From: the human T2T-CHM13v2.0 reference genome, Homo sapiens
NCBI RefSeq assembly: GCF_009914755.1
Contig: NC_060934.1
Strand: one strand, 5' to 3'
Length of the DNA stretch: 64,000 nucleotides
Position 1 is the first letter of the stretch, and each line of letters opens with the position of its first letter. A program made the translations under genes and the position numbers. This document shows positions 1-53,676 of this stretch, one piece after another. The notes beneath the pieces were generated by a model, which saw only the letters and a list, made by a program, of their open reading frames with translations, was not told the DNA's origin and made no database searches.

Positions 1-100
1 ACAAATATTATGTATCAATAAAAATATTCAAAATTAAGATACAATTTGCAGTAAGATTAGTATTCAAATGTATAGGTATTGGGTTCCTATACACTTCCTA

Positions 101-1479: not shown

Positions 1480-1962
1480 GAGAGAAGGGGGAAATACTGT
1501 CTTGTCATAGGAAATGTCTGGAAGTAAATTTTGATTACTTATACTATTTACCTTCCTAGTTTCTATTGTCTTCTCATTTATTCTTTTTCTTAATTTGAAA
1601 AAGGACCTTAGAGATGACTGAACTCAAAGTCTTCATTCTACTAAGGAGAAGATGGGCCTGAGGTGGTAGGTGACTGGTCCCCATCACAGGTGTTTGGGGT
1701 GTGGTGGGCCTGTGAGTATATTCAGAGCATATCTATATGTTCATTCTTTCCCAGAAATGATTTACAAATTACAGAGGGTTGGGAGCCCCAAGTGACAGGA
1801 TCTGTTTGGAACTAGAAGGACCAAGAGTGATGAGGACAGAGTACTGCCCTTTGAAATGTGCTCCTTGATAACACCAACCCCAGAAAGGGAGGATGAGGGA
1901 ACTGATCCTGGCCTGGGACAGCCAGTCAGTATTAGTGTGGTTTAGTTTTCCTGACTAGACGT

Positions 1963-2350
1963 CCTCCTTCCCTCTCTTTCCCTCCCCTCCCCTTCCCTTT
2001 CCTTCTCTTCCCTTCCCTCCCCTTCCCTTTTCTTCTCTTCCTTTCCCTCCCCTTCCTCACCTTCACTTCCCTTCCCTCTCTCACCTTCCTTTCCCTCCCT
2101 TTCTTCCTCCCCTCCTCATCCCCTCCCTTCCTCCCTCCCCTTGCCTTCCTTTCCCTCTCCTCCCTCCCCTTCTCTACCCTCTACTATTCTCTCCTCTCCT
2201 CCCCTCCCCTCCCCTCCCTTTCCCTTCCCTCACCGTCCCTCCCTACCTCTCCCCTCTCCTTCCCTCCTCTGCCTTCTTCTTCTCTTTCCTTTCCTTCCTT
2301 CCACACTTTCTTCCTTCCTTCCCTTCCTCCCTCCTTCTTTCCACCTTTCA
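1963..2350 (+). repeat. CT-rich polypyrimidine low-complexity tract (~390 bp)
   Basis: Almost pure C/T with CCTT/CCCTT units. Confidence 0.95.
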
Positions 2351-25688: not shown

Positions 25689-25961
25689 GGAATGAGATCA
25701 GCAGTTTGAGCCCCTTTGAAACCCTGAGATTATGGGAAGGAGAAGATGAGCTAGTGAGAATTCCCCATCCTTCTTCAACCAGAGCCACTGTTACTAGTTT
25801 TGTGTAACGGCTTTCTGCGTTAGAGTTAATTTGAAAGACAGTTTCTATTTTTTAAATGTGAAAACTACGTGAATCCATGAGCCTTAGGTTCCTTCTACCT
25901 CTAACATTTTACACTACCTACATGTAATCAGATGGTTCCAGGTTTACGAATGTTGTCTCTT

Positions 25962-26221
25962 CCTGTGTGCATGTGTTCTCATTGTTCAGTTCCCACCTAT
26001 GAGTGAGAACATGTGGTGTTTGGTTTTTTGTCCTTGCGATAGTTTGCTGAGAATGATGGTTTCCAGCTTCAGAGGGGGGAGGGATAGCATTAGGAGATAT
26101 ACCTAATGCTAAATGATGAGTTAATGGGTGCAGCACACCAACATGGCACATGTATACATATGTAACAAACCTTCACGTTGTGCACATGTACCCTAAAACT
26201 TAAAGTATAATATAAAAAAAA
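25962..26221 (+). mobile_element. Short 5'-inverted L1PA(3/4-like) 3'-end insertion
   Basis: Inverted part 25962-26070, sense part 26071-26221 with A-tail. 14-bp TSD gaatgttgtctctt at 25948-25961 and 26222-26235. Confidence 0.92.
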
Positions 26222-29200
26222 GAATGTTGTCTCTTTCAGATGTCTCTGTGTTTGACTTAGAACCATTACCATACTGCAGGTCTTCAGGCAAGTTATCCTC
26301 TCAAGGCCTTAGCTCTTCTCTTCTCTAAAATGGAGACAAGAGTTGTACCAACTTCAAAAGATTGTGGTGAAAACCAAATGAGACAACTCATAGTGTCCAG
26401 CAAATTATAAATGCTCAGTAAGTGTTAGTCCTTATTATTAGTCTGAAGAAATGCTTGAATTACACATGGTAGGTTCACCTTCCTTTATTAATTTGACTTA
26501 TGCTTATTTCAAATAAGCCTTCTTCTAGAACAAACTCCAAGGTCATTAAAATAGAATATCTTATACTTTGCTTCTGTTTTAACTTGACATTGCAGGGAAA
26601 ATTTATTTATATGATTTTAGAGTATTCACTTAAGAGTAAAGTGATATCCAAAACATACTGCATCATATCATGGCTATGTAGATTTCTTCCCAGAAACCTT
26701 CAGTTAAAAGTTAAAATGAAAAAAATAAAGTTGAGATGAAATGAATTGTTTCTGTGGGTGATACTGTGCTGAATATCAGCTTTTTCATAAATTTTAAGCT
26801 TATATTTGCAAGATTTTATTTTTTATTTCGGTCTTTGGGTCTCAGTTTCCCGATCTGTGTAAGTCAAGGAACTGGACCAATAACTGCAGATTCAACGTTG
26901 ATGATTCAAAGTTTATTTCAAGTACTGTGGCACTCTAATCAATTTGTCTCATTTCTCTGGACCTGTTTCCTTAGCTGCAAACTGAGGAGAAAATGTTCTT
27001 ACCTATCAGCTGCTTTTAATTATAATATTGGAGTTTTAACTCTTCTTTTCCTGCTCTTCCTCAACTAAGTTAGTATATGGTTATCTAATCATCCCAATTA
27101 TAATGTATCACAAATTAATTTCTAATGTTTCCAGGTGCACAGTTAAAAGCTTGTCAACATATACTAGGCAACTGCTGGGTGCTAGAGACACAGTAATGAA
27201 AAGCCATGCTTCCTGCCTTCAGGAACTGGGACATCAGACATAGAATGATGATGATGATAAGGATGAGGATGATGATAATGACAGAGATAATAAATGTAAA
27301 GATAATTGCTTTAATAGGAATAAGTACAATATTCACTGGAGACAAAAGATCTAGAGAACCTAAATCAGCCTGGTGGCTGGGTGTTTGTGAAGGCTAGGGG
27401 AAAAAATGAGAGAGAATATTCCAAGCTGGAGGAATACTGTGTGCAAAGAGCTCAAGATGAAAAGACAGGACTAGACCAGAAATTACAAATAGTTTGGAAC
27501 TGTTGAAATATGAAATGCAAAAAGAGGAGGTGGGAGAGACAAATGGGCCTAAGAGCTTTGTAAGCCATTTAATTGATTAATATCTGGACATATGTTGAGA
27601 TTTTTCAAACATAATTGTAATGTTAAGGTTTTAAATTCAAATAGAAAAGCAGTTTTAATATAAGCTTCTGAAAGTATTACAAAAATACAAAAATTCAAGA
27701 TCAATATTTTTGTAGGTAGCCTTAGAAGAAACAAATTCAGGGAAATGAAGAGTGCTTGGGAAAGAACACCAAACCATCTTGCTTTGAAGTGTATCCTGAG
27801 GAGTTTTTCTGTCAGATGACCACTGATTAAGGTTAGACATCTAAGGTAGATGTCAGATAACTAATCTTGTTTTGCTAAAAATCTCTTTTGGGTTTTCATA
27901 TTTTGTGAACTTGAAGATTTGCTGTGATCTTAGTTATTTAAATTTTCTCAGTGATTTTTTTGTTTGAGAGCCTTACTCCATTAAAGAAAATCTATACAAT
28001 TGATTACTTGGCATCTGATCTGTTCCTAGACTTCGAATGGATTGAAAAGTATTCTTTTCTTGAATGAAGTGGAAAGATAAAGACAAACAGATATATATAT
28101 ATGTATGCTCTATAAAAACAAAAAGATTGGTAAATATTCTAATTCTGGTTTGATTTTTGTAGAAAGAGCACCTGACTCAGAAGTCATGAATTCAAGGTTC
28201 TGCTATTTATTTATTATTCATTAATGATAATGATATTTATCATTATTAATAATGGTGTAATAAGCATGTATTACTTCATTTGCATTTCCAAAATTAAAGT
28301 TATACACCCATCAAATTGTTCTAGAAGACTTGAATAAAAACCAGAAGTACTGTATGCCTTCCCCCCATTTCCCATTTCCTACAGCAATGACTTCCAAAAC
28401 GTTTAGCTTGATATTACTTTTGCCACTGTGTCTCCAAATAATATGCTTACATTTCTTCCTCCTGATTTTTGAAACATTTTAGCTATTATCTATTGATGTT
28501 TCCTTAAAGCAGATGAGGTTCATTTTTTTTCACCACTTCCTCCCCTTACACAAAGCCTCCACTACACACAGGCACATTTCCCAATCCCTCAAATTCCTAT
28601 TCCAGATATGTCATAATTTAGGTTAGATCAATATGCATGGTTTACATTATTACAACTAAACAAATGCTAGTTACGACTCAGCCACATTGCATACTCTGAT
28701 TATTCTGAATTTTTCTGCATGTTTTGTTATACTTGGAGTTAATAATTGTCTTCTTTTTGGTACCACAGTTTTCTATGAACTGATTACTAATTTAACCACA
28801 GAGTCTTCATGAGTTGTCTCAGTATCCTCTATGTTCTTCCATTCCAAGAATTCCATTTAATCTAGAAGAAATCTCAACCCTGAGTTTTCTGACCTACTCC
28901 AATTTGAGTTCTCTTTTCATTATCATCTTGAGGAACTCTTTTGCCTCTATCATGTGCTAGCTTGCTTGTTTTCTATATTCTACATTTTCTCCTTATCTTG
29001 ATTTAATCTTGTTTTGGTGGCAAGCAATCTTCAGTAGCTACCTCAGACAGGGCATAAATAAATAAAACTTTTTTTTTTTTTTGAGAATGGATTTTAGCCT
29101 TATGTTTGGTTGATAGTTTTGCGGGGTATAAACTTCTACCATGGAAATTATTTTCCACTGGGCATTGCTGCATTGCCATTTGGCTCTTGATGCTGCATCC

Positions 29201-39139: not shown

Positions 39140-39600
39140 GACTTTTACAGGCAAGAATGTATTTGGCTGCGACTAACAGGAAACCTGACACAGAGTGGCT
39201 TAAACAAGCCAGGGGTTTGTCCTTCTCACCTAATGAGAAGTCTGGGGCTAAGCAGTCCAGGCTCCAAGAGCTGCTCAAGGGCATCAGGAGCCCCGTGTCT
39301 TCCCTCTTCCCTGCCTCCACCATCTTCAGCCTGTGGCTTTTTGCCTTATTTTTGCACTGTGGCTGTGGCTGTGTCTTGAGGTGTGTCTGGTTTATGCAGG
39401 AAAAAGGCGGAAGAAGAAAAATTATTTTCTCTTAGAGATTTTGCATTTTTATGTGACAAAGAATTCTCTCTCCTGGAACTTCTGTCTGTACTTCTTTGGC
39501 CACCTTTTGCTGCAAAAGACTCTGGGAATGTATCTTCTTTTTCCAGCCTCACTAGTGGAAGTAGGCAAAGAAGAAGGGGGTCAGAATGGATGCTGAATGT
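39140..39600 (-). mobile_element. Old MLT1 (K/L/M-like) LTR
   Basis: tttggctgcgactaacaggaaacc...agtggcttaaacaag resembles reverse-strand late MLT1 ends. Confidence 0.45.
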
Positions 39601-39771
39601 TTTACCCCATATTTTCCTCACAGTGGGCAAAGTGGAGGAGCATTAGGACTCAAAATTGCAAATTGTGACTGAAGTCAAAGCTTACCTGTATTGGAGACTT
39701 TGGACTGTGCTGATAATCTGTAGGAACTTATATTATTCAGTAACATTATATATCAGTAGAATTTCTTTCTT

Positions 39772-39841
39772 TCCTTTTTTTAAATTATAATTTTTTTTCA
39801 TCAGGCAGCCCCTGAACCAGAATAGGTTCTGAGAGGCTCCC
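39772..39841 (-). mobile_element. 70-bp retroposed insertion: 43-nt hairpin body plus degenerate poly(A)
   Basis: Perfect 15-bp TSD tagaatttctttctt at 39757-39771 and 39842-39856; T-rich tail 39772-39798. Confidence 0.85.
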
Positions 39842-41882
39842 TAGAATTTCTTTCTTGGCATAGTCCAGAAGTAAACCTAAATACCAAAGAGGAAACCAAC
39901 TCTGATCATCTAAAGCTCTTCTCATCTTGTTACTCCTTTTATGAACAGAATCTAGGACCACTGAGTACTGGAACTATCTCTAAAAATTCTCCATTGTTTT
40001 CTCCATGTCAAATGTTTTTTTTTCCATAGAAAATTACATGGCACAATAAAAATGCTTATTTCACTTTTTATTATCTTAAGATATCTTTTCTGTCCTCCCT
40101 CCTCCCACCGTCCACACATGTCAGATTTGGTTTAGAATTGACAGGTTCAATGTAGTTCATGCCTCGCCCTTTTGGCTTTTCATAGATTGGTCACTTAGGT
40201 ATAATCTGGCCAACAAAGCCAGAATTTGTTCAGAACCATTTTGGAGACAGTTTGATAGAATTATCATCCCATGTTTTGTTGTCTGAAATTGTCCAAAATA
40301 GTGAGCTAATAAAATAAACCAGTTGACTCATTCTTAGTTCGTTTTAAGATACTGTTCTTACTTAAAAAATACATAGGGTAATAGTGACCACATATATTCC
40401 TTTATATGAAATATTTAATAAACTACCAGGAATGAGGCGCAATTTTATTGCTAATTTATAGTGGTTTTGGTGTGTGGGGATGATCTTGGCAAGAAAATCT
40501 TGTTATGCTGCAAAAGCCACCAAATTCAATGTCTAATCCTTATCGTACTACCATCTAGGGAAGTCTCCAGAGAGCACAAAACCATCATAGAAGCATTGTG
40601 GGTGCTATACATTTGTAAATCCTTTTCCTACCTATCAGGCTACTAATAGCTGTGGATGATGAAAATGTTTGTATTTGTAACAAGTATTAAATCTTGTTCC
40701 CATTTATGATGCTGGCATATAAAAAGATAATACTTTCTAGGTATCAGGTGGTTTCCCTGTTATAGTGAGAATGATAAACCACATATTAGTCTGCATATTG
40801 AGTTGATCTGGAGCTTAACTGTATCTCTTATATAGGAAGGTGATTAAACATAGGATTTGAAAATTAGCCATTGCTGTTTTTTCCCCCTCGATTTTAAAAG
40901 TAATACAAACCTATATAGAATACTTGAAAGTATAAACATAAGTAAAAAAGAAAAACCAAGTCATCCCTAACTCCAGAATCCAGCAATAACCACTGATGAT
41001 ATTTTAGGAATTTTTTTCCTGGTCTTTTGAAAATATGCCCACACAATTTATTTTTGCCATGCATTTTGAGTTTGTACCATATGTCAGGTGCAGTGTTGAG
41101 CTTTGGGGATGCAGATGAAACCAAAAGAGTTACTGGCCCTACCCTTCTGTGACTTAAATTCTACACTGGGATCATACCTCCTATCTTTTTCACTTAGCGT
41201 TGAATCATAAGTATTTTCTGTTTCATTAAAGGTTCTTGAAGAACATGGTTTCCGGTGTCTGTATAATTCTTTTGTTGTAGTATACTTTGTTTAAACACTA
41301 CAACATTTTAGAATATGTTTAGGTGGCTAGACAGTGGAATGAGTCCAGTGTTTCTACTCAAACTGCCCGGGATTCAGATCCTGATTATTAGCCATGTGGC
41401 CTGGGACAAATTAATAACTCATTTGGCTTCTCATCTCTAAAATGGAGATAAAAAGTATCTATCTTCTAGGTTGTGAGGATTAGAAATACTGTATCTACAA
41501 GTGCCAGGTGCGGAGCAGGTACTCAAGATATGGCAGATGATAAATATTTAGCCCGCTGTCCCAACCACTTCTGCCTAAAAGCCTTTTATGCATTTTTTAT
41601 TATTCTCATAGGAAAAACCTTATTAGTGAAATTTTGGGGAGCAAAGGACATGGAAATTTTAAGGTTCCTGATTAATTTTGCAAAATTATTTTCTGGGAAG
41701 TTTTGCAGGTTAGGCAGAAGAGACAACAAATCTGCAGGGTAATCTGCTCCTTATACCTGTGGTTCCCACAGTCCATTATTAGAAAGCAATTGAATTACCA
41801 ATATAGAGTTAGATCTCCGTTTTGCCTTTTTTGCTGAAAAATTGAAGTGAATTTTATCTTACCTGCTTAGCATGTTTGTGGA

Positions 41883-52406: not shown

Positions 52407-53676
52407 TGAGGGATCTTCAAAAAGTTTGTGGACGGTATGTATTATGAAAAAAAAAACTATGCATGGATTTCAAACTTTTTTTTGGCACTAAAATAAATTC
52501 CTGCTGATTTGGGTAAGACATCAATTTGAAAAGAGTCCCTATCCAGAGCAACATGTATTCTGCTATTACTGAGGCAAGAACAAATACCAAATTTATGGTG
52601 AAGCATGGTGGAAGAATGGTGAAATTATTGATACTTTACAAAAAATTTATGGGAATAGTACACCAAAGAAATCAGCTGCTTCCAAATGGATAATTCATTT
52701 TAAGAAGGGACGAGATGACGATGAAGATGAGGCCCATGGCAGCAGACCATCCACATCAATTTATGAGAAAAAAATTCATCTTATTCATGCCTAACTGAAG
52801 AGGGCCAACAATTCACAGAAGAAGCAATGGCCAAACACCATAGGCATCTCAGTTGGTTTAGCTTACACAATTCTGACTAAAAAATCAAAGTTGAACAAAT
52901 TTTCCACTCAATGGGTGCCAAAACTGTTGTGCTAAGATTAGCTGCACACAAGAGCTTTCAGTGAAAAATTCAAACAATTGGCATTGAGATCCTAAAGCAT
53001 TTCTCGAAAGAATTGTAACAGCAGATGAAACATGGTTTTGCCAGTACAATCCTGAAGACAAAGCACAATCAAAGCAATGGCTACCAAGAGGGGCACATGG
53101 TGAAGAGCAAAAGTCATGGCAATAGTTTTATGAGATATTCAAGGCATTTTGCTTGTTAACTTTCTGGAGGGTCAAAAGAAAATAACATCTGCCTCCGTCC
53201 CAAAAAGAAAAATAAAAAAGAAAATAACATCTGGTTATTATGAGAGTGTTTTGAGAAACCCAAAGCTTTAGAAGAAAAACGTCTGGGAAAGCTTCATCAG
53301 CGAGTTGTTCTCTGCCATGGCAGTGCTTCTGCTCGTTCCTCTCATCAAACAAGGACAAATTTTAAATAATTTCCATGGGGAATCATTAGGCATCCACCTT
53401 ACAATTGTGATTTATTCCTTTTGACTTCTTTTTGTCTTCTAATTTAAAAACATCTTTAAAGGGTATCCATTTTTCTTCACTTAATAATGTAAAAAAGACT
53501 GCATTGACATGGCTAAGTTCCTAGGACCCCCACTTTTTTAGTGATGTACTAAATGGTTGATACAATCACTTACAAGAGTACTGGAACTTTTTGGAGCTTA
53601 TGACAAGAAATAAAGTTCATATTTTTAATTTTTATCTTTTAATTCAATTTTCCATGAAAGTTTTGATGTCCCCTCA
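52407..53676 (+). mobile_element. Hsmar2 mariner transposon, near full length, with decayed transposase starting at 52553
   Basis: TIRs tgagggatcttcaaaaagttt / ttttccatgaaagttttgatgtcccctca; TA on the left. Peptides EARTNTKFMVK, WVPK and IVTADETW. Confidence 0.9.

What the first reader, a model, noticed from the sequence alone, without database searches (positions are those of the whole stretch)
39757..39856. Retroposed 43-nt hairpin RNA with TAR-like geometry, probably from an ERV1 LTR: fossil of a short polyadenylated LTR transcript
Seen: a perfect 15-bp direct repeat (tagaatttctttctt) brackets a 70-bp insert. On the minus strand it reads GGGAGCCTCTCAGAACCTATTCTGGTTCAGGGGCTGCCTGATG followed by an A-rich tail, and the TSD begins AAGAAAG on that strand. 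The body folds by hand into a lower stem AGCCUCU/AGGGGCU (7 bp, one G-U), a 2-nt CA bulge, an upper stem GAACC/GGUUC and a 6-nt loop. The insert covers essentially just this hairpin. Established: TSD plus poly(A) at an A-rich target marks L1 target-primed reverse transcription. HIV-1 TAR is a bulged, 6-nt-loop hairpin at the start of the LTR R region that accumulates as short abortive transcripts. Inference: from memory the body resembles the post-TATA segment of MER4-group ERV1 LTRs, but it is tailed before the usual LTR poly(A) signal. It may record a class of short promoter-proximal LTR hairpin RNAs that were adenylated and mobilised in trans by L1, in effect a micro-SINE family.
Basis: partly seen in the sequence, partly recalled or inferred. 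Interest (0 to 1): 0.8.

Follow-up and report, generated by a model that had tools for sequence, protein, structure and literature searches.

The report
Retrocopied start-of-LTR hairpin RNA family
This 70-base insert is one of at least 34 LINE-1-made copies of a tiny 43-base hairpin RNA that began at the start site of an ancient retroviral LTR promoter and ended well before its normal poly(A) signal, so the genome preserves a fossil of very short promoter-proximal transcripts.

Summary
A perfect 15-bp direct repeat (39757-71, 39842-56) brackets a 70-bp insert. On the minus strand this is a 43-nt hairpin body plus a 27-nt A-rich tail.

A 29-nt core of the body has 114 hits in this genome and 0 for the reversed control. 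I examined 106 copies:
- 72 lie inside a ~400-bp solo LTR or its fragments. It has TGT...ACA ends and 4-bp target duplications, so it is ERV1-type.
- In those LTRs the hairpin starts 27-30 nt after an ATAAA/ATATA box and about 63 nt before ATTAAA/AATAAA.
- 34 are isolated ~43-nt units in unrelated flanks.

Among the 34 isolated units:
- 30 carry an A-rich tail starting at unit position 38-49, against 0 of 69 LTR-embedded copies.
- 22 have target-site duplications, against 6 of 102 shifted controls.
- 23 begin with G, against 8 of 62 LTRs, as expected if the cap was reverse-transcribed.
- None contains U3 sequence, and none clearly ends at the canonical poly(A) site.

The best reading is dead-on-arrival LINE-1 retrocopies of a short, capped, A-tailed LTR transcript. 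It is not a self-propagating SINE. How the tail arose is inferred. The "MER4" name and the empty orthologous site could not be tested. Five literature searches found no description of such a family.

The parts
39842..39856 (-). Target-site duplication, copy upstream of the insert in its sense (minus) orientation; reads AAGAAAGAAATTCTA on the minus strand
   Evidence: 15/15 identical to 39757-39771. It begins A-rich, like 16 of the 20 family members that have both a tail and a duplication.
39799..39841 (-). 43-nt body: retrocopy of the first ~43 nt transcribed from an ERV1-type LTR (start of R). Hairpin spans nt 1-38, followed by a 5-nt 3' overhang.
   Evidence: Fold -22.6 kcal/mol, z -3.85. 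The body is homologous to the post-TATA segment of about 70 LTR copies and to 33 other isolated units.
39814..39829 (-). Top of the hairpin: upper stem GAACC/GGUUC and 6-nt loop UAUUCU
   Evidence: The upper stem is kept in 55 of 62 LTR copies and 33 of 34 isolated units.
39772..39798 (-). Degenerate A-rich tail (27 nt, 19 A by my count) directly after unit position 43
   Evidence: The same placement of an A-rich tail occurs in 30 of 34 isolated units and 0 of 69 LTR-embedded copies.
39757..39771 (-). Target-site duplication, copy downstream of the tail

Best explanation
The insert is a LINE-1-made retrocopy (target-primed reverse transcription) of a very short RNA. RNA polymerase II began this RNA at the transcription start site of an ERV1-type LTR. 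It consisted of little more than the first stem-loop of the R region (about 38 nt) plus about 5 nt, and it carried an A tail about 20 nt upstream of the LTR's own poly(A) hexamer.

The window copy is one of at least 34 such copies. They come from more than one source LTR variant and carry no promoter, so they are dead on arrival.

Shown here:
- the family exists;
- its 5' and 3' ends coincide;
- tails and target duplications are present;
- the unit sits just after the TATA-like box in the LTR;
- the copies contain no U3 sequence and no poly(A) hexamer;
- the first base is enriched for G.

Inferred:
- The 5' end is the capped start site. The extra G would come from reverse transcription of the cap.
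- The 3' end arose by promoter-proximal pausing or premature termination, or by trimming back to the hairpin, as for short HIV-1 TAR RNAs.
- The tail was added to the RNA by nuclear surveillance-type or other non-canonical adenylation, which let L1 ORF2p use it.
For: Copy number: 114 genomic hits to the 29-nt core, 0 for the reversed control. I examined 106 non-redundant copies.

Classification against eight natural LTR copies (the 106th copy, L123, by eye):
- 62 near-full LTRs, plus L123;
- 7 5'-truncated LTRs;
- 2 LTR 3' parts (L055, L007);
- 34 units whose homology starts at -39..+8 and mostly ends at +35..+66.

LINE-1 marks:
- A tail of >=7 A in 10 nt starts at unit position 38-49 in 30 of 34 units, against 0 of 69 LTR-embedded copies.
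- Target-duplication score is >=8 in 22 of 34, against 6 of 102 shifted-anchor controls.
- Both marks are present in 20 of 34, and 16 of those 20 duplications begin with A.
- The 5' duplication ends within -5..+2 of the unit start in all 22, and within +/-2 in 18.

Position in the LTR:
- ATAAA/ATATA lies at -24 to -31 (26 of 35 at -30 or -27) in 35 of 62 LTRs.
- ATTAAA/AATAAA lies at +63 in 34 of 62.
- 0 of 34 units hold either poly(A) hexamer.

First base: G in 23 of 34 units against 8 of 62 LTRs, Fisher p = 1e-7. [quoted passage not shown]

Source diversity: unit position 6 is C/T at 15/13 in units and 25/29 in LTRs, so there was more than one source variant.

LTR type: 4-bp target duplications (6 exact among 13 copies with clean ends by my reading) and TGT...ACA termini.

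Published analogy:
- Short capped ~60-nt TAR RNAs arise from pausing and premature termination just after the hairpin (PMC4872094, passages).
- Exosome/Integrator-coupled decay controls many ERVs, and short non-adenylated transcripts can become polyadenylated (PMC10842741, passages).
Against: - No RNA data were available. The start site, the cap and the A-tailed 43-nt species are inferred from DNA fossils only.
- There is no poly(A) hexamer in the unit, so canonical cleavage and polyadenylation does not explain the tail.
- 12 of 34 units have no target duplication scoring >=8. Four lack a clear tail, and two (L076, L099) lack both.
- The TATA-like motif is intact in only 35 of 62 LTRs.
- 8 of 62 LTRs have G at the first unit position, so a templated G from particular sources is not excluded.
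- The census is a lower bound and is ascertained on <=3 mismatches to one 29-mer. 14 hits were not listed and not examined.
- The age and the empty site of the window copy were not tested.
Confidence: 0.75

Rival explanations
1. The same short LTR-initiated RNA was the template, but it was not adenylated. L1 ORF2p began on the poly(A) of an L1 or Alu RNA at the nicked target and switched template to the 3' end of the small hairpin RNA. The A tail would then come from the first template.
For: The unit has no poly(A) hexamer (0 of 34). Non-adenylated small RNAs (U6, Y RNAs and others) are known to be retrocopied by L1, partly as chimeras. I saw this only in search listings and abstracts (PMC13174262, PMC6789731, PMC4476161). 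The 3' ends scatter over about 11 nt.
Against: By eye, none of the 34 units shows L1 or Alu 3' sequence between the tail and the unit. Three have an Alu after the tail in the same orientation (L003, L015, L092), which looks like a later insertion into an A-rich tail. This rival differs from the best explanation only in where the tail came from. DNA alone cannot separate the two.
Confidence: 0.15
2. The units come from one dedicated small-RNA master gene: an exapted LTR fragment, transcribed by Pol III or processed from a longer transcript like a pre-miRNA. On this view it is a true small-RNA or SINE-like source, not a general property of the LTR promoter.
For: G at unit position 1 in 23 of 34 units could be templated by a source with G there, since 8 of 62 LTRs have G. 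Units show CA at positions 28-29 more often than LTRs. Retrocopies of whole pre-miRNA hairpins have been described (PMC7692494, passages).
Against: Both C and T variants at unit position 6 occur in the units in about the same proportion as in LTRs, and G-starts occur with both. That argues for several sources. There is no run of T at the unit's 3' end beyond the two T also present in LTRs. The 5' end falls 27-30 nt after the TATA-like box, as expected for Pol II initiation. The 38-nt hairpin is short for Drosha or Dicer substrates (my knowledge).
Confidence: 0.07
3. Ordinary 5'-truncated retrocopies of longer polyadenylated LTR or proviral transcripts. On this view the window insert is just a very short truncated copy, like the 24-nt Alu-tail insert at 53192-53215.
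For: Very short 5'-truncated L1-mediated inserts do occur, even in this window.
Against: Truncation points would scatter, but here 5' ends coincide within a few nt. None of the 34 tailed copies holds U3 sequence, and 0 of 69 LTR-embedded copies has a tail at +38..49. The tail lies about 20 nt before the LTR's poly(A) hexamer, so no known longer transcript ends there.
Confidence: 0.03

Closest known systems
HERV-W (LTR17) processed pseudogenes made by LINE-1
   Same: ERV transcripts that start at R are copied by L1, giving a poly(A) tail and long target duplications. The review abstract calls HERV-W the sole HERV group specifically mobilised by L1 (PMC5537654, abstract seen in the listing).
   Different: Those are kilobase-long R-U5-...-U3-R copies that end at the canonical poly(A) site. 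Here the copy is about 43 nt, holds only the start of R, and is tailed before the poly(A) hexamer. It also comes from a different, older ERV1-type LTR.
Short non-processive HIV-1 TAR RNAs and cellular capped promoter-proximal hairpin RNAs (capped pre-miRNAs, TSS-miRNAs)
   Same: A capped RNA that starts at +1, folds into one hairpin and ends a few nt after the stem, through Pol II pausing or premature termination (PMC4872094, passages).
   Different: No Tat-like system is known or implied. The hairpin is 38 nt rather than 59. Nothing here shows Dicer processing. And TAR short RNAs are not known to me as retrocopied.
Stem-loop at the start of R in retroviral LTRs, including the gammaretroviral R-region stem-loop
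   Same: A stem-loop directly after the start site is described as a conserved feature of LTRs, gamma-type included (PMC2664473, passages). That paper cites Cupelli et al. 1998, which I did not read.
   Different: That literature concerns the element within the LTR and its effect on expression. It does not concern free-standing genomic retrocopies of the stem-loop.
L1-mediated retropseudogenes of small RNAs and of pre-miRNA hairpins
   Same: Short structured RNAs are copied with an A tail and target duplications. Whole pre-miRNA retrocopies have been reported for mir-373 and mir-498 (PMC7692494, passages). Y RNA and U6 retropseudogenes were seen in listings only.
   Different: The source here is a Pol II promoter-proximal transcript of a retroviral LTR, not a stable cellular small RNA gene or a Drosha product. 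About 43 nt is also shorter than those.
SINE-R / SVA (HERV-K-derived retroposed LTR sequence)
   Same: LTR-derived sequence spread by L1 (PMC3287187, passages; the origin of SINE-R is from my own knowledge).
   Different: SINE-R holds env-U3-R ending at the canonical site and became part of a composite element that keeps amplifying. The units here have no promoter and show no sign of secondary amplification.

Membership tests
L1-mediated retrocopy (processed retropseudogene) | Target-site duplication of roughly 7-20 bp flanking the insert | tested here: met
   The window copy has 15/15. In the family, score >=8 in 22 of 34 units against 6 of 102 controls.
L1-mediated retrocopy (processed retropseudogene) | 3' A-rich tail directly after the copied RNA | tested here: met
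   The window copy has a 27-nt tail with 19 A (my count). In the family, 30 of 34 units against 0 of 69 LTR-embedded copies.
L1-mediated retrocopy (processed retropseudogene) | Insertion at an A-rich (TT/AAAA-like) endonuclease site | tested here: met
   16 of 20 well-defined duplications begin with A, and the window's begins AAGAAAG. The bases before the nick are less regular, so only the A-rich start is claimed.
L1-mediated retrocopy (processed retropseudogene) | Full-length copies end at the RNA 5' end, often with an untemplated G from the cap | tested here: met
   5' ends lie within -5..+2 nt. G is at the first position in 23 of 34 units against 8 of 62 LTRs. The cap interpretation comes from PMC3287187.
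SINE | Own internal promoter, so that copies can themselves be transcribed and amplify | tested here: not met
   Units start at the LTR start site and contain nothing upstream of it. By eye there is no Pol III A/B box or T-run terminator. C and T source variants are both represented as in LTRs, which points to many parental LTRs rather than copy-of-copy amplification.
SINE | Mobilised in trans by a LINE, with a tail the LINE recognises | tested here: met
   A tails and L1-type duplications are present.
ERV1 (gammaretrovirus-like) LTR, as source | TG...CA termini and a 4-bp target duplication | tested here: met
   13 copies with clean ends start TGT and end (A/T)CA. By my reading, 6 have exact 4-bp duplications and several more match at 3 of 4.
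ERV1 (gammaretrovirus-like) LTR, as source | U3-R-U5 layout: TATA-like box, start site, poly(A) hexamer followed by a T-rich stretch, and a primer-binding site after the LTR in proviral copies | tested here: met
   ATAAA/ATATA lies at -24..-31 in 35 of 62 LTRs and ATTAAA/AATAAA at +63 in 34 of 62. L043 has a TGG-initiated primer-binding-like 18-mer 2 nt after the LTR, and its internal sequence is shared with L007 and L090.
   No Dfam, Repbase or RepeatMasker is on hand. The hub's mask list gives no family names and omits stretches under 100 bp.
HIV-1 TAR-type element | Hairpin formed by the first nucleotides of R | tested here: met
   The hairpin spans unit nt 1-38. The upper stem is kept in 55 of 62 LTRs and 33 of 34 units.
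HIV-1 TAR-type element | Binds a viral transactivator at the bulge and loop, and controls elongation | not testable with these tools
   No protein or RNA assays are available. The CA bulge is private to the window copy.
HIV-1 TAR-type element | Accumulates as short capped transcripts that end just after the hairpin | tested here: inconclusive
   Only indirect evidence exists: 34 retrocopies end 0-11 nt after the stem and show 5' G enrichment. No RNA data.

The most novel reading that the evidence does not exclude
An extinct gammaretrovirus-like LTR produced, in the germline or early embryo of our ancestors, abundant capped ~43-nt 'TAR-like' abortive transcripts. These were A-tailed by nuclear RNA surveillance and repeatedly captured by LINE-1.

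The resulting copies would be the shortest Pol II-derived retrocopy family known to me. They would also be a DNA fossil record, at single-nucleotide resolution, of the start site and promoter-proximal termination point of an ancient retroviral promoter.

If other LTR families show the same pattern, retrocopies could be used to map start and pause sites of long-dead retroviruses. HERV-W would then no longer be the only ERV group mobilised by L1.
Probability: 0.45. Interest if true: 0.75.

Novelty: new variant of a known kind. Interest (0 to 1): 0.6.

Why it matters
L1 retrocopies are usually read as fossils of mature mRNAs or stable small RNAs. Here the fossil is of a class of RNA normally thought too short-lived to matter: a promoter-proximal, hairpin-only transcript of a retroviral LTR.

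If the reading holds, it does three things:
- It fixes the start site of an ancient ERV promoter from DNA alone.
- It shows that TAR-like short transcripts are not peculiar to lentiviruses.
- It shows that such RNAs reached the L1 machinery with an A tail often enough to leave dozens of germline insertions.

It also warns annotators that 40-50-bp "LTR fragments" followed by A-rich sequence may be discrete insertions. At this locus (BICC1 intron 1, antisense) nothing suggests a function.

Tried and rejected
- Rfam scan of 39400-40200 at E<=10: nothing over the insert.
- Exact 43-mer with <=3 mismatches: only the window copy. Family members differ by more than that over the full length.
- A covariance model of the unit was built, but this genome cannot be searched with a model. 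The census therefore rests on one BLAST query and one 29-nt pattern. It is a lower bound, and 14 pattern hits were not listed or examined.
- I looked for a processed-pseudogene signature at L007, where LTR homology begins exactly at the unit start and runs into internal proviral sequence. No A run of >=10 and no copy of the 5' flank turned up in the 10 kb downstream. L007 therefore cannot be used as independent evidence for the start site.
- I looked for tailed copies that run from the start site to the canonical poly(A) site (about +85). None is clear. L016, L028, L030 and L066 show BLAST extensions to +61..+92 that are A/T-rich, and where a duplication is seen they are contradicted by its position. 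L030 remains ambiguous.
- An all-against-all comparison of flanks was swamped by Alu matches. Only the L007/L043/L090 and L055/L112/L116/L121 relations were useful.
- Earlier scan findings were not open.
- Literature: five searches and passages of PMC11727581 and PMC13174262 gave no description of retrocopies of an LTR's first stem-loop. PMC11727581 says many of its retrocopies map to ERVs (its Figure S2A and tables). I did not see its supplements, and they may list such loci.
- Dating from target-duplication identity was rejected as biased, because detection favours intact duplications.
Full report
**What is at the site**

On the + strand, TAGAATTTCTTTCTT occurs twice without a mismatch (39757-39771 and 39842-39856). 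The two copies enclose 70 bp. Read on the minus strand, the insert is a 43-nt body (39841 down to 39799) followed by a 27-nt A-rich tail.

It has a 7-bp lower stem with one G-U, a 2-nt CA bulge, a 5-bp upper stem, a 6-nt loop, and two further G-C pairs at the base. The energy is -22.6 kcal/mol, z = -3.85, and none of 200 shuffles folds as well.

In the whole window only 13 families of direct repeats of >=14 bp lie within 400 bp of each other. By position, several of the others bracket retro-insertions. No Rfam family matches the insert.

**Is it a lone copy?**

The full 43-mer with up to 3 mismatches is unique in this genome. A 60-nt BLAST query, however, gave 37 matches at 83-95% identity. 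A 29-nt core allowing 3 mismatches gave 114 matches, against 0 for the reversed control.

I fetched the flanks of all 100 listed core matches and added 5 BLAST-only copies that carry small indels. This made 106 non-redundant copies. Fourteen core matches were not listed and were not examined, so all counts are lower bounds.

**Two kinds of copy**

I compared each copy with eight natural LTR copies. The 106th copy, L123, was judged LTR-embedded by eye. The result:
- 62 copies, plus L123, lie inside a near-complete element of about 400 bp.
- 7 lie inside 5'-truncated versions of it.
- 2 (L055, L007) are 3' parts of it.
- 34 are isolated. Their homology begins at about the first base of the unit and mostly ends 35-66 nt later, in flanks unrelated to each other. 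L012 and L020 are one unit inside a segmental duplication.

**The source element**

The element has TGT...ACA termini. Among the 13 copies whose ends aligned cleanly, 6 have exact 4-bp target duplications and several more match at 3 of 4. This is the ERV1 (gammaretrovirus-like) pattern.

In the LTR, the unit begins 24-31 nt (mostly 27 or 30 nt) after an ATAAA/ATATA motif, which is intact in 35 of 62 copies. An ATTAAA/AATAAA hexamer follows at +63 in 34 of 62 copies (39 of 62 within +110). After that comes a T-rich stretch, and the LTR ends near +108.

In L043 the LTR is followed after 2 nt by a TGG-initiated primer-binding-like sequence. The internal sequence of L043 is shared with L090 and L007.

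The name "MER4" could not be checked with these tools.

**The isolated units are LINE-1 insertions of one defined RNA**

- An A-rich tail (>=7 A in 10 nt) starts at unit position 38-49 in 30 of 34 units. This is seen in none of 69 LTR-embedded copies.
- A target duplication scoring >=8 abuts the unit in 22 of 34, against 6 of 102 controls in which the anchor was moved 60-140 nt upstream.
- 20 of 34 have both marks, and 16 of those 20 duplications begin with A.
- Three units that have a tail but no detected duplication (L003, L015, L092) have an Alu directly behind the tail. That would push the downstream duplication beyond the 110-nt search range.
- The 5' duplication ends within -5..+2 nt of the nominal unit start in all 22, and within +/-2 nt in 18.
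- None of the 34 contains U3 sequence. The few BLAST extensions to -10..-39 are contradicted by the position of the duplications.
- None clearly runs on to the region after the poly(A) hexamer. L030 is ambiguous.
- None contains AATAAA or ATTAAA.

Random 5' truncation of longer transcripts would not give this pattern.

**The 5' end**

The first unit position is G in 23 of 34 isolated units but in only 8 of 62 LTRs, where it is mostly T or C (Fisher p = 1e-7). G-starts occur in units with either the C or the T variant at unit position 6. Those variants are about as frequent in units (15/13) as in LTRs (25/29).

This fits an untemplated G added when L1 reverse transcriptase copies the cap of a full-length RNA, as described for L1 and SVA (PMC3287187, passages). 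It also fits several parental LTRs better than one master gene. Together with the distance from the TATA-like box, it places the Pol II start site at the second base of the unit. That placement is an inference; no RNA data were available.

**The 3' end and the tail**

The hairpin occupies nt 1-38 to 1-40 in nearly all copies. The upper stem is kept in 55 of 62 LTRs and 33 of 34 units. Mean fold energy is -15.2 and -18.4 kcal/mol, against about -8 for shuffles. The tails begin 0-11 nt after it.

The closest documented parallel is HIV-1. There, Pol II pauses once TAR has formed, and premature termination releases capped ~60-nt TAR RNAs whose 3' ends coincide with the pause site (PMC4872094, passages). 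A stem-loop directly after the start site is described as a general feature of retroviral LTRs, gamma-type included (PMC2664473, passages).

Nuclear exosome and Integrator-coupled decay acts on many ERV transcripts, and short non-adenylated transcripts can become polyadenylated (PMC10842741, passages). I therefore favour a prematurely terminated or trimmed, hairpin-protected RNA that received a non-canonical A tail and was then used by L1.

An alternative cannot be excluded from DNA. The RNA may have been untailed, and L1 may have switched template from the poly(A) of another RNA.

**What it is not**

- It is not a SINE in the strict sense. The copies carry nothing upstream of the start site, and there is no sign of copy-of-copy amplification.
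- It is not evidence of a Tat-like system. The CA bulge that gives the window copy its TAR-like look is due to a private change at unit position 12.
- Nothing suggests a function at this locus. By the hub's gene table the insert lies in BICC1 intron 1, antisense to the gene.

**Age**

LTR copies are about 70-83% identical to each other over their length. Core identity among units (0.88) is close to that among LTRs (0.86), although both sets were ascertained on similarity to one 29-mer. The tails are degenerate. The units are therefore old and roughly contemporary with the LTR family. I could not date the window copy or test its empty site, because no other primate genome was on hand.

**Novelty**

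I ran five full-text searches and read passages of two retrocopy surveys. None describes retrocopies that consist only of an LTR's first stem-loop.

A review abstract calls HERV-W the sole HERV group specifically mobilised by L1 (PMC5537654, listing). Retrocopies of whole pre-miRNA hairpins are known (PMC7692494, passages).

The supplements of PMC11727581 were not seen. That paper reports many retrocopies mapping to ERVs, and its supplements may contain such loci. Repeat-library notes could not be consulted.

I rate this a new variant of a known kind. The known kind is the L1-mediated retropseudogene. The unusual part is the template: a promoter-proximal LTR transcript tailed ahead of its poly(A) signal.

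Noticed in passing
window 53174-53233: A perfect 18-bp direct repeat (AAAAGAAAATAACATCTG) brackets a 24-nt insert, CCTCCGTCCC plus an A-rich run. By recall it looks like the last ~10 nt of an Alu plus its tail, which would make it an extremely 5'-truncated L1-mediated insertion.
   Followed up: partly
window 100-119/405-424 and 25948-25961/26222-26235: Direct repeats of 20 nt (95%) and 14 nt (100%) sit at the edges of masked repeats 113-421 and 25958-26232. By position they look like target duplications of Alu-sized insertions.
   Followed up: no
L007 (G000:C6:87677393-87680433; unit at about 1500) and L122: LTR homology begins exactly at the unit's first base and runs through U5 into internal sequence shared with the regions downstream of L043 and L090. 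This could be a processed-pseudogene-like copy of the proviral RNA or a deletion. No A run and no flank duplication was found within 10 kb.
   Followed up: partly
L043 (G000:C8:125489886-125492914), just after the LTR end: A TGG-initiated 18-20-nt primer-binding-like sequence lies 2 nt after the LTR. By recall it resembles a tRNA-Leu-type primer-binding site, which would be unusual for an element with 4-bp target duplications. Not checked against tRNA genes.
   Followed up: no
L006 (G000:C8:117578162-117581202), after the unit: The ATTAAA-containing segment of this LTR copy is tandemly expanded several times and is then followed by an A run.
   Followed up: no
L012 and L020 (G000:C15:42.73 and 42.77 Mb): The same isolated unit, with the same flanks, is present twice in opposite orientation about 35 kb apart. 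The unit lies inside an inverted segmental duplication.
   Followed up: no
L003, L015, L092 (downstream of the unit tails): An Alu in the same orientation starts directly after the unit's A tail. This fits later Alu insertion into an A-rich tail.
   Followed up: no
window 1951-2341: A long CT-rich low-complexity tract gives 20 overlapping 'repeat' copies.
   Followed up: no
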